DNA of 64,000 nucleotides from Escherichia coli. GTDB taxonomy: Bacteria > Pseudomonadota > Gammaproteobacteria > Enterobacterales > Enterobacteriaceae. Where the stretch lies: NCBI RefSeq assembly GCF_003334305.1, contig NZ_QOWS01000009.1. The stretch is one strand, 5' to 3'. The notes under the pieces were generated by a model. It had not been told where the DNA came from. It was given only the letters and a program-made list of their open reading frames with translations, and searched no databases. The position numbers and the translations under genes were made by a program. Shown here piece by piece: positions 63,647-63,807 of this stretch. The first letter of the stretch is position 1, and the number at the start of each line of letters is the position of its first letter.

Positions 63647-63745
63647 ATGACTACTTCCATGTTCAACGCAAAACTACTACCAACTGCGCTATCCGCCGCA
63701 GTGGTCGTCGTGCGTGTGGTGGTGGTCGTCGGCAATGCGCCGTAG
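63647..63745 (+). CDS. ivbL: ilvB operon leader peptide
   Basis: 32-codon ORF MTTSMFNAKLLPTALSAAVVVVRVVVVVGNAP, rich in Val and Leu, followed by an attenuator hairpin. Confidence 0.9.
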   Translation: MTTSMFNAKLLPTALSAAVVVVRVVVVVGNAP

Positions 63746-63768
63746 GGACTGGAACAACACACGATTCC

Positions 63769-63807
63769 AAAACCCCGCCGGCGCAAACCGGGCGGGGTTT
63801 TTCGTTT
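63769..63807 (+). terminator. ilvB attenuator terminator
   Basis: aaaaccccgccggcgcaaaccgggcggggtttttcgttt: GC-rich hairpin followed by a T-run between ivbL and ilvB. Confidence 0.8.

What the first reader, a model, noticed from the sequence alone, without database searches (positions are those of the whole stretch)
63647..63807. ivbL leader peptide may differ from the K-12 peptide at two positions
Translation gives MTTSMFNAKLLPTALSAAVVVVRVVVVVGNAP. My recollection of the K-12 peptide has L at position 6 and P at position 15. The Val/Leu-rich regulatory core and the attenuator hairpin are intact, so the effect is probably neutral. The comparison rests on memory and could be wrong.
Basis: partly seen in the sequence, partly recalled or inferred. 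Interest (0 to 1): 0.08.

Follow-up and report, generated by a model that had tools for sequence, protein, structure and literature searches.

The report
Common natural variant of ivbL leader
The short leader peptide in front of the E. coli ilvBN valine/leucine-synthesis genes does differ from the K-12 laboratory strain at two residues, but this variant is found in over a quarter of sequenced E. coli genomes and leaves the regulatory RNA switch untouched, so it is ordinary.

Summary
Window 63647-63745 (+) encodes MTTSMFNAKLLPTALSAAVVVVRVVVVVGNAP. K-12 MG1655 ivbL (b3672) encodes MTTSMLNAKLLPTAPSAAVVVVRVVVVVGNAP. The differences are two C->T changes, at 63662 (CTC->TTC, L6F) and 63690 (CCA->CTA, P15L). 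All other bases from 63550 to 63860 match K-12, including the Val run, antiterminator, terminator and the ilvB start.

The allele is not rare. It is RefSeq protein WP_001315912.1. Its exact 53-nt haplotype occurs in 1534 of 5426 complete E. coli genomes. The K-12 type (L6/P15) occurs in 2173, F6/P15 in 1547, and L6/L15 in none. E. albertii and one Citrobacter share the K-12 state, so F6/L15 is probably the most derived step of a series LP -> FP -> FL.

Both sites lie in the variable 5' half of the leader. In 14 of 36 other Enterobacterales species the aligned codon 15 is Leu, and in 12 of those it is CTA. Both bases are unpaired in the predicted fold. Predicted energies and antiterminator probabilities are the same for the three alleles.

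The only conceivable functional effect is a shift of one leucine codon: CUC at codon 6 is lost and CUA at codon 15 is gained. This is already known and of low interest.

The parts
63621..63646 (+). ivbL 5' UTR. It is CA-rich, with a Shine-Dalgarno AAGG at 63637-63640. The transcription start near 63621 is inferred from the TATAAA at 63609-63614.
   Evidence: Sequence read; identical to K-12. A GcvB sRNA target in the ivbL 5' UTR is reported for K-12 in PMC9299463. The transcription start is inferred, not tested.
63647..63745 (+). ivbL leader-peptide ORF: 32 codons plus a TAG stop; F6/L15 allele, identical to RefSeq WP_001315912.1.
   Evidence: Annotated as ivbL in identical genomes.
63662..63662 (+). 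SNP 1: T here, C in K-12. Codon 6 is TTC (Phe) instead of CTC (Leu).
   Evidence: T is carried by the FL (1534) and FP (1547) exact haplotypes and by 3211 of 5420 genomes in all. Unpaired in the predicted fold (P paired 0.00).
63674..63679 (+). Leu codons 10-11, CTA-CTA. This rare Leu codon is conserved across Enterobacterales.
   Evidence: codon 10 is CTA in 36 of 36 species and codon 11 in 32 of 36.
63690..63690 (+). SNP 2: T here, C in K-12. Codon 15 (63689-63691) is CTA (Leu) instead of CCA (Pro).
   Evidence: The exact F6/L15 haplotype is in 1534 genomes. The alignment column is hypervariable (A 16, T 15, C 7) and is flanked by an invariant GCGC. It lies in the apical loop of the predicted 5' hairpin.
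63701..63730 (+). Regulatory core VVVVRVVVVV: Val codons 19-22 and 24-28, with Arg at codon 23.
   Evidence: Identical to K-12. The amino-acid core was the search pattern, so its presence in every ortholog says nothing; beyond it, many third-codon positions of this stretch are also invariant across 38 aligned leaders.
63736..63747 (+). Antiterminator 5' arm (UGCGCCG..GGG). It overlaps codons 30-32 (the last base of Asn30, then Ala31 and Pro32) and the stop codon.
   Evidence: Constrained folds. Pairing potential is kept in 95% of cells across 38 leaders.
63750..63769 (+). Small hairpin enclosed by the antiterminator.
   Evidence: Compensatory changes in other genera: A-U to U-A in 7 and G-C to A-U in 4.
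63773..63802 (+). Intrinsic terminator (attenuator): stem 63773-63781 with 63788-63797, G63790 bulged, then T-run 63798-63802. Its 5' arm is shared with the antiterminator 3' arm (63774-63785).
   Evidence: Fold of -20.4 kcal/mol. Eight of nine pairs are invariant in 38 leaders. Identical to K-12.
63852..64000 (+). Start of ilvB, the acetohydroxyacid synthase I large subunit. It runs off the window.
   Evidence: Annotation under the 100% identical matches.

Best explanation
This is the well-known ivbL leader and transcription attenuator of the E. coli ilvBN operon, carried here as a common natural allele (F6/L15).

Mechanism, as established for K-12 and inferred here from sequence identity: a ribosome translates the 32-codon leader while RNA polymerase transcribes it. 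If charged tRNA-Val or tRNA-Leu is scarce, the ribosome stalls at or before the Val run. The segment 63736-63747 stays free and pairs with 63774-63785 (the antiterminator), so ilvBN is transcribed. If supply is good, the ribosome reaches codons 28-33 and covers 63736-63747. The terminator 63773-63797 plus T-run then forms and transcription stops.

The two C->T substitutions lie 46 and 74 nt upstream of the antiterminator, in unpaired and evolutionarily variable positions, and do not alter this switch. They are lineage polymorphisms, seen here in O26, O111 and O103-type strains, and are most likely neutral or nearly so. Their only plausible functional consequence is that one Leu codon moves from position 6 (CUC) to position 15 (CUA).
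For: Identity: the leader matches K-12 ivbL at 97 of 99 nt. The 5' UTR, Val run, stop codon, antiterminator, terminator and ilvB start are all identical. RefSeq annotates the identical sequence as ivbL, WP_001315912.1, upstream of ilvB.

Frequency, as exact 53-nt haplotypes in 5426 complete genomes: F6/L15 1534, L6/P15 2173, F6/P15 1547, L6/L15 0.

Sites are variable. Codon 6 is Leu, Met, Asn, Gln, His and others among 36 species. Codon 15 is Pro, Gln, His or Leu, and is Leu-CTA in 12 species.

RNA: the minimum free energy is -69.7 versus -69.8 kcal/mol with the same structure. Both SNP bases are unpaired. With a modelled ribosome footprint, antiterminator probability is 0.88 for A-site codons up to 26 and falls to 0.00 at codons 30-33, and it is near-identical in the three alleles (largest differences 0.81 vs 0.87 at codon 6 and 0.21 vs 0.12 at codon 28).

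Terminator and antiterminator pairing is conserved in 38 leaders. Response of the K-12 leader to both Val and Leu, and loss of the Leu response when its Leu codons are replaced, is reported in PMC11187965.
Against: No experiment on this allele is available, so neutrality is inferred. The equilibrium folding model is crude: with the complete transcript the terminator always wins, and with no ribosome the antiterminator still forms, so it does not reproduce the kinetics. The number and position of Leu codons do change between alleles (K-12: 6, 10, 11; this window: 10, 11, 15; F6/P15: 10, 11), and Leu codons matter for the Leu response. Rfam has no family for this attenuator, so there is no independent covariance-model confirmation.
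Confidence: 0.9

Rival explanations
1. The allele series is adaptive tuning. Replacing Leu6 (CUC) with Phe and creating Leu15 as a third rare CUA codon, 3 codons before the Val run, changes how strongly ilvBN read-through responds to leucine limitation in this lineage.
For: Leu codons of ivbL are needed for the Leu response in K-12 (PMC11187965). Codons 10-11 are CTA-CTA in nearly all of 36 species, and the Leu at aligned codon 15 is CTA in 12 species, whereas Leu6 uses CTG, CTC or CTA. This suggests the CUA codons are the sensing ones. Three of the four common ivbL polymorphisms are nonsynonymous. No L6/L15 haplotype exists.
Against: There are no functional data. The conserved CTA could equally reflect an RNA-level constraint. 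Codon 15 is also Pro, Gln or His in many species with the same downstream switch, so a Leu there is dispensable. The absence of L6/L15 is expected from simple stepwise descent without recombination inside 28 bp. In the footprint model any stall up to codon 26 has the same outcome.
Confidence: 0.12
2. The differences are assembly or sequencing errors in the window, or the ORF is a decayed or non-functional leader.
For: None beyond the a priori possibility.
Against: The 601-bp region is 100% identical to many independent complete genomes, and 1534 genomes carry the exact haplotype. The start codon, Shine-Dalgarno sequence, reading frame, stop codon, Val run and terminator are all intact.
Confidence: 0.01

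Closest known systems
E. coli K-12 ivbL (b3672, NP_418128.1): leader peptide and attenuator of the ilvBN (acetohydroxyacid synthase I) operon
   Same: Same locus between istR/tisB and ilvB, and the same 32-codon length. 97 of 99 nt are identical. The 5' UTR, Val run, stop codon, antiterminator, terminator and ilvB start are identical.
   Different: Residue 6 is Phe (TTC) instead of Leu (CTC). Residue 15 is Leu (CTA) instead of Pro (CCA).
RefSeq WP_001315912.1, 'ilvB operon leader peptide IvbL', for example in E. coli E2863 and O26, O111 and O103 strains
   Same: Identical protein and identical 601 bp of DNA.
   Different: Nothing. This is the same allele.
RefSeq WP_001312198.1, the IvbL F6/P15 allele, for example in BEN2908 and uk_P46212
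   Same: Shares F6. It is the intermediate haplotype, present as an exact 53-mer in 1547 genomes.
   Different: Keeps Pro15 (CCA), so it has only two Leu codons.
ivbL orthologs of Kluyvera, Pseudocitrobacter, Cedecea, Serratia and others ('..[22 protein letters not shown]')
   Same: Leu encoded by CTA at the aligned codon 15. Same CTA-CTA at codons 10-11, same Val run, and same terminator and antiterminator.
   Different: Different N-terminal residues. Position 16 is Pro rather than Ser. Codon 6 is not Phe.
Classical leader-peptide attenuators of amino-acid operons (trpL, leuL, ilvL, thrL, hisL, pheL)
   Same: Same logic: a short ORF rich in the regulatory codons, with mutually exclusive antiterminator and terminator hairpins read out by ribosome position.
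   Different: Different sequence and operon. Here the antiterminator 5' arm overlaps the leader's last codons and stop codon. The equilibrium folds did not resolve a clear 'protector' (1:2) pairing that sequesters the antiterminator arm.

Membership tests
ivbL / ilvBN leader-peptide attenuator | Short translatable ORF (Shine-Dalgarno sequence, ATG, stop) rich in Val and Leu codons | tested here: met
   32 codons, with 9 Val and 3 Leu. AAGG lies 6 nt before the ATG.
ivbL / ilvBN leader-peptide attenuator | Sequence orthology to the K-12 ivbL gene | tested here: met
   97 of 99 nt and 30 of 32 aa are identical to b3672. An identical protein is named IvbL in RefSeq.
ivbL / ilvBN leader-peptide attenuator | Position immediately upstream of ilvB, downstream of istR/tisB/emrD | tested here: met
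   ilvB starts at 63852. istR is at 63388-63517 (Rfam, 149 bits), tisB at 62993-63082 (-), and emrD at 61390-62580 (-).
ivbL / ilvBN leader-peptide attenuator | Intrinsic terminator between the leader ORF and ilvB | tested here: met
   Stem 63773-63797 of -20.4 kcal/mol plus a run of 5 T. Eight of nine pairs are invariant in 38 leaders. The simple consensus scan missed it, probably because of the bulged G63790.
ivbL / ilvBN leader-peptide attenuator | Alternative antiterminator that shares the terminator's 5' arm and is blocked by a ribosome at the end of the leader ORF | tested here: met
   63736-63747 pairs with 63774-63785. Probability is 0.88 with the ribosome at codons up to 26 and 0.00 at codons 30-33. 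95% of cells are paired across genera. This is an equilibrium model only.
ivbL / ilvBN leader-peptide attenuator | Read-through regulated by valine and leucine supply | not testable with these tools
   Shown for the K-12 allele in the literature (PMC11187965). Not measured for the F6/L15 allele.
Rfam leader families (Leu_leader, Thr_leader, His_leader, Trp_leader and others) | Match to a curated covariance model | tested here: not met
   There is no + strand Rfam match in 63620-63810 at E <= 1. The only matches are sub-threshold chance hits on the - strand at the terminator. Rfam appears to have no ivbL family, so this does not bear on the ivbL assignment.

The most novel reading that the evidence does not exclude
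The three-step allele series in E. coli sets lineage-specific leucine sensitivity of acetohydroxyacid synthase I expression. The series runs L6/P15 -> F6/P15 -> F6/L15, with 3, 2 and 3 Leu codons respectively, and the last allele has all three as rare CUA codons close to the Val run. Under this reading the window's allele is the most leucine-responsive.
Probability: 0.12. Interest if true: 0.2.

Novelty: already known. Interest (0 to 1): 0.05.

Why it matters
It matters little. The result shows that the K-12 leader peptide is only one of three common E. coli alleles. At residue 6, K-12's Leu is the minority state: 3211 of 5420 genomes carry the Phe codon. The variable positions lie outside the conserved RNA switch.

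The finding is useful as a caution against treating K-12 as the species reference. It is also a ready-made natural allele series for anyone who engineers ivbL-based Val/Leu biosensors or studies how the number and position of rare CUA codons set attenuator sensitivity.

Tried and rejected
1. The consensus promoter/terminator scan reported only the istR terminator and no promoter. It missed the attenuator terminator, probably because of its one-base bulge, so it was not used as evidence.

2. The Rfam search found no leader family for this region. The - strand hits P6 and STnc310 are sub-threshold and cover only the palindromic terminator, so they were rejected as chance.

3. Equilibrium folding of the complete leader with a ribosome mask always gave the terminator (P about 0.87) wherever the ribosome sat. 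It cannot model the kinetic decision. It was replaced by folding the transcript truncated before the terminator's 3' arm.

Only one non-coli Escherichia (E. albertii) was recovered, and no Salmonella or E. fergusonii. The ancestral-state inference therefore rests on few outgroups.

5. A literature search for 'ivbL' returned mostly unrelated abbreviations. No paper describing these natural alleles was found. The original 1982-83 papers on the ilvB attenuator were not in the searchable library.

6. The sequencing-error explanation was rejected.

Full report
**1. Checking the observation**

The region 63300-64000 was read directly. An ATG at 63647 follows AAGG at 63637-63640 and opens a 32-codon frame that ends with TAG at 63743-63745.

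The K-12 MG1655 record (NC_000913.3) was fetched. Its annotated ivbL (b3672, NP_418128.1) translates to MTTSMLNAKLLPTAPSAAVVVVRVVVVVGNAP.

At the DNA level the changes are C->T at 63662 (CTC->TTC) and C->T at 63690 (CCA->CTA). In a 341-nt alignment (63520-63860) the only other differences are at 63522 and 63549, both upstream of the leader. The 5' UTR, the Val run, the stop codon, the terminator and the start of ilvB are base-for-base identical to K-12.

**2. What it is and where it sits**

The 601 bp 63400-64000 is 100% identical to many complete E. coli chromosomes, including O26, O111 and O103 strains and isolates from cattle, humans, dogs, water and other sources. RefSeq annotates that sequence as 'ivbL: ilvB operon leader peptide IvbL' followed by ilvB. 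In strain E2863 the identical peptide is WP_001315912.1.

The neighbourhood matches K-12:
- emrD at 61390-62580 (-)
- tisB at 62993-63082 (-)
- the istR sRNA at 63388-63517 (Rfam RF01400, 149 bits)
- ivbL
- ilvB from 63852

**3. How common the allele is**

A 53-nt query spanning both SNPs was used. The 27 bases between the SNPs are too short for megablast's 28-nt seed, so a genome carrying both alternative bases gives no hit. Exact haplotypes were counted in 5426 complete E. coli genomes:

| Haplotype | Genomes | Note |
|---|---|---|
| F6/L15 (this window) | 1534 | |
| L6/P15 (K-12 type) | 2173 | Includes O157:H7, which carries an additional T2A change |
| F6/P15 (WP_001312198.1) | 1547 | For example BEN2908 and uk_P46212 |
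| L6/L15 | 0 | |

About 166 further genomes carry one of these haplotypes plus another SNP. An example is F6/P15 with a synonymous C->T at ORF position 48.

The window's allele is thus one of three major alleles of the species. At residue 6, K-12's Leu is the minority state, since T at 63662 occurs in 3211 of 5420 genomes.

**4. Direction of change and conservation**

A degenerate pattern for VVVVRVVVVV was scanned over one genome per species. It recovered ivbL orthologs from 36 Enterobacterales species.

E. albertii (MTPSMLNAKLLPTAPSAA...) and Citrobacter sp. FP75, Pseudescherichia and Escherichia sp. ESNIH1 have L6 and P15. The K-12 state is therefore probably ancestral. The series LP -> FP -> FL is the simplest history, and it fits the absence of an L6/L15 haplotype.

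Across genera the 5' half of the ORF is variable:
- Codon 6 is Leu (CTG, CTC or CTA), Met, Asn, Gln, His and others.
- Codon 15 is CCA (Pro), CAA (Gln), CAY (His) or CTA (Leu).

The middle base of codon 15 is the variable one (A 16, T 15, C 7 in the alignment). It is flanked by an invariant GCGC. Twelve other species have Leu-CTA at that aligned codon, the same as the window: Kluyvera, Pseudocitrobacter (2), Cedecea, Enterobacter sp. Ag1 and sp. R1, Klebsiella sp. BIGb0407, Serratia (3), Mangrovibacter and Morganella.

By contrast, codons 10-11 are CTA-CTA in almost all species. Everything from the Val run to the terminator is nearly invariant.

**5. Mechanism, and whether the SNPs touch it**

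The full leader (63622-63800) folds to -69.7 kcal/mol for the window and -69.8 kcal/mol for K-12, with the same structure. It consists of a long 5' hairpin, a small hairpin at 63750-63769, and the terminator. The terminator stem is 63773-63781 paired with 63788-63797, with G63790 bulged, at -20.4 kcal/mol, followed by TTTTT at 63798-63802.

Base 63662 lies in an internal loop and 63690 in the apical loop of the 5' hairpin. Their pairing probabilities in the window allele are 0.00 and 0.02.

When the transcript is cut before the terminator's 3' arm, 63736-63742 (UGCGCCG) plus GGG at 63745-63747 pair with 63774-63785. This is an antiterminator that uses the terminator's 5' arm.

With a 31-nt ribosome footprint imposed, the antiterminator has probability 0.88 when the A site is at any codon up to 26. 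It falls to 0.69 at codon 27, 0.21 at codon 28, and 0.00 at codons 30-33. The values are near-identical for the three alleles; the largest gaps are 0.81 vs 0.87 at codon 6 and 0.21 vs 0.12 at codon 28.

This reproduces the textbook logic. A ribosome stalled at Val or Leu codons allows read-through, and a ribosome that reaches the end of the leader causes termination. It also shows that the SNPs, 46 and 74 nt upstream of the antiterminator, do not affect the switch.

Across 38 aligned leaders the terminator pairs are invariant in 8 of 9 positions, and the antiterminator pairs are kept in about 95% of cells. That is conservation, not covariation. The enclosed small hairpin shows compensatory changes: A-U to U-A in 7 species and G-C to A-U in 4.

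The model has limits. It is an equilibrium model, so with the whole transcript the terminator always wins. It also does not reveal a convincing 'protector' pairing for the untranslated state.

**6. Possible functional consequence**

Work on the K-12 leader shows that it responds to both Val and Leu. Replacing its Leu codons with Ser codons abolishes the Leu response (PMC11187965).

The alleles differ in their Leu codons:

| Allele | Leu codons |
|---|---|
| K-12 (L6/P15) | CUC-6, CUA-10, CUA-11 |
| F6/P15 | CUA-10, CUA-11 |
| This window (F6/L15) | CUA-10, CUA-11, CUA-15 |

From general knowledge, CUA is the rarest Leu codon in E. coli, and rare codons sharpen attenuator sensitivity. A modest change in leucine sensitivity is therefore conceivable (inference; estimated probability about 0.12). 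Nothing here demonstrates it.

The GcvB target regions reported in the ivbL 5' UTR and in the ivbL-ilvB spacer (PMC9299463) are unchanged.

**7. Comparison with what is known, and verdict**

All sequence-testable defining features of the ivbL attenuator are met. These are orthology, position, a Val/Leu-rich ORF, a terminator, and an antiterminator overlapping the ORF end. Regulation by Val and Leu cannot be tested here. Rfam has no model for this element.

The allele itself is already in RefSeq under its own accession and is carried by 28% of complete E. coli genomes. It is already known and of low interest.

Noticed in passing
window 62993-63082 (-): The TisB toxin differs from K-12 at residue 2: MSLVDIAILILK... 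here versus MNLVDIAILILK... in MG1655. This is another small-protein polymorphism in the same intergenic block.
   Followed up: partly
window 63522 and 63549: There are two further SNPs against K-12 upstream of ivbL. Base 63522 (C vs T) lies just after the istR terminator. Base 63549 (G vs A) lies in the 6-nt spacer of a CRP-like site, CGTGA-TCAGCC-CCTCA (63542-63557), about 70 nt upstream of the inferred ilvB transcription start. The ilvB promoter is known to depend on cAMP-CRP (own knowledge).
   Followed up: no
window 63674-63679, and loci L010-L128 (ivbL orthologs): Leu codons 10-11 of ivbL are the rare CTA-CTA in nearly all 36 Enterobacterales species examined. Leu at aligned codon 15, where present, is CTA in 12 of 14 species. 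Leu at codon 6 uses CTG, CTC or CTA. This suggests either that the CUA codons are the leucine sensors or that there is an RNA-level constraint.
   Followed up: partly
window 63750-63769 (+): The small hairpin between the two antiterminator arms shows compensatory base changes across genera: A-U to U-A in 7 species and G-C to A-U in 4. The flanking terminator and antiterminator are invariant.
   Followed up: partly
E. coli genomes: No L6/L15 recombinant haplotype exists among 5426 complete genomes, although both single changes are at high frequency. O157:H7 genomes carry a further T2A change (WP_010904951.1).
   Followed up: yes
window 63388-63517 (+): The istR sRNA, antitoxin of tisB, matches Rfam RF01400 over its full length at 149 bits.
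   Followed up: yes
window 62750-62870: Long GC-rich REP/BIME-like palindromes between emrD/ysdE and tisB give spurious sub-threshold matches to miRNA families (mir-3122, MIR477, mir-515).
   Followed up: no
window 33276-33356 (-), 49007-49078 (+), 38833-38875 (-): Other Rfam matches above gathering score in the window: AsdA (antisense of dnaA mRNA), ROSE_2 (a thermometer of the ibpA type) and ES036 sRNA. These are expected features of this chromosomal region.
   Followed up: no
window 63370-63867 (-): A 165-aa ORF lies antisense to istR, ivbL and the attenuator. It runs across the known sRNA and leader on the opposite strand. Some RefSeq records annotate a 'hypothetical protein' overlapping ivbL (H30, H37, H49). 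It is most likely a spurious ORF.
   Followed up: no
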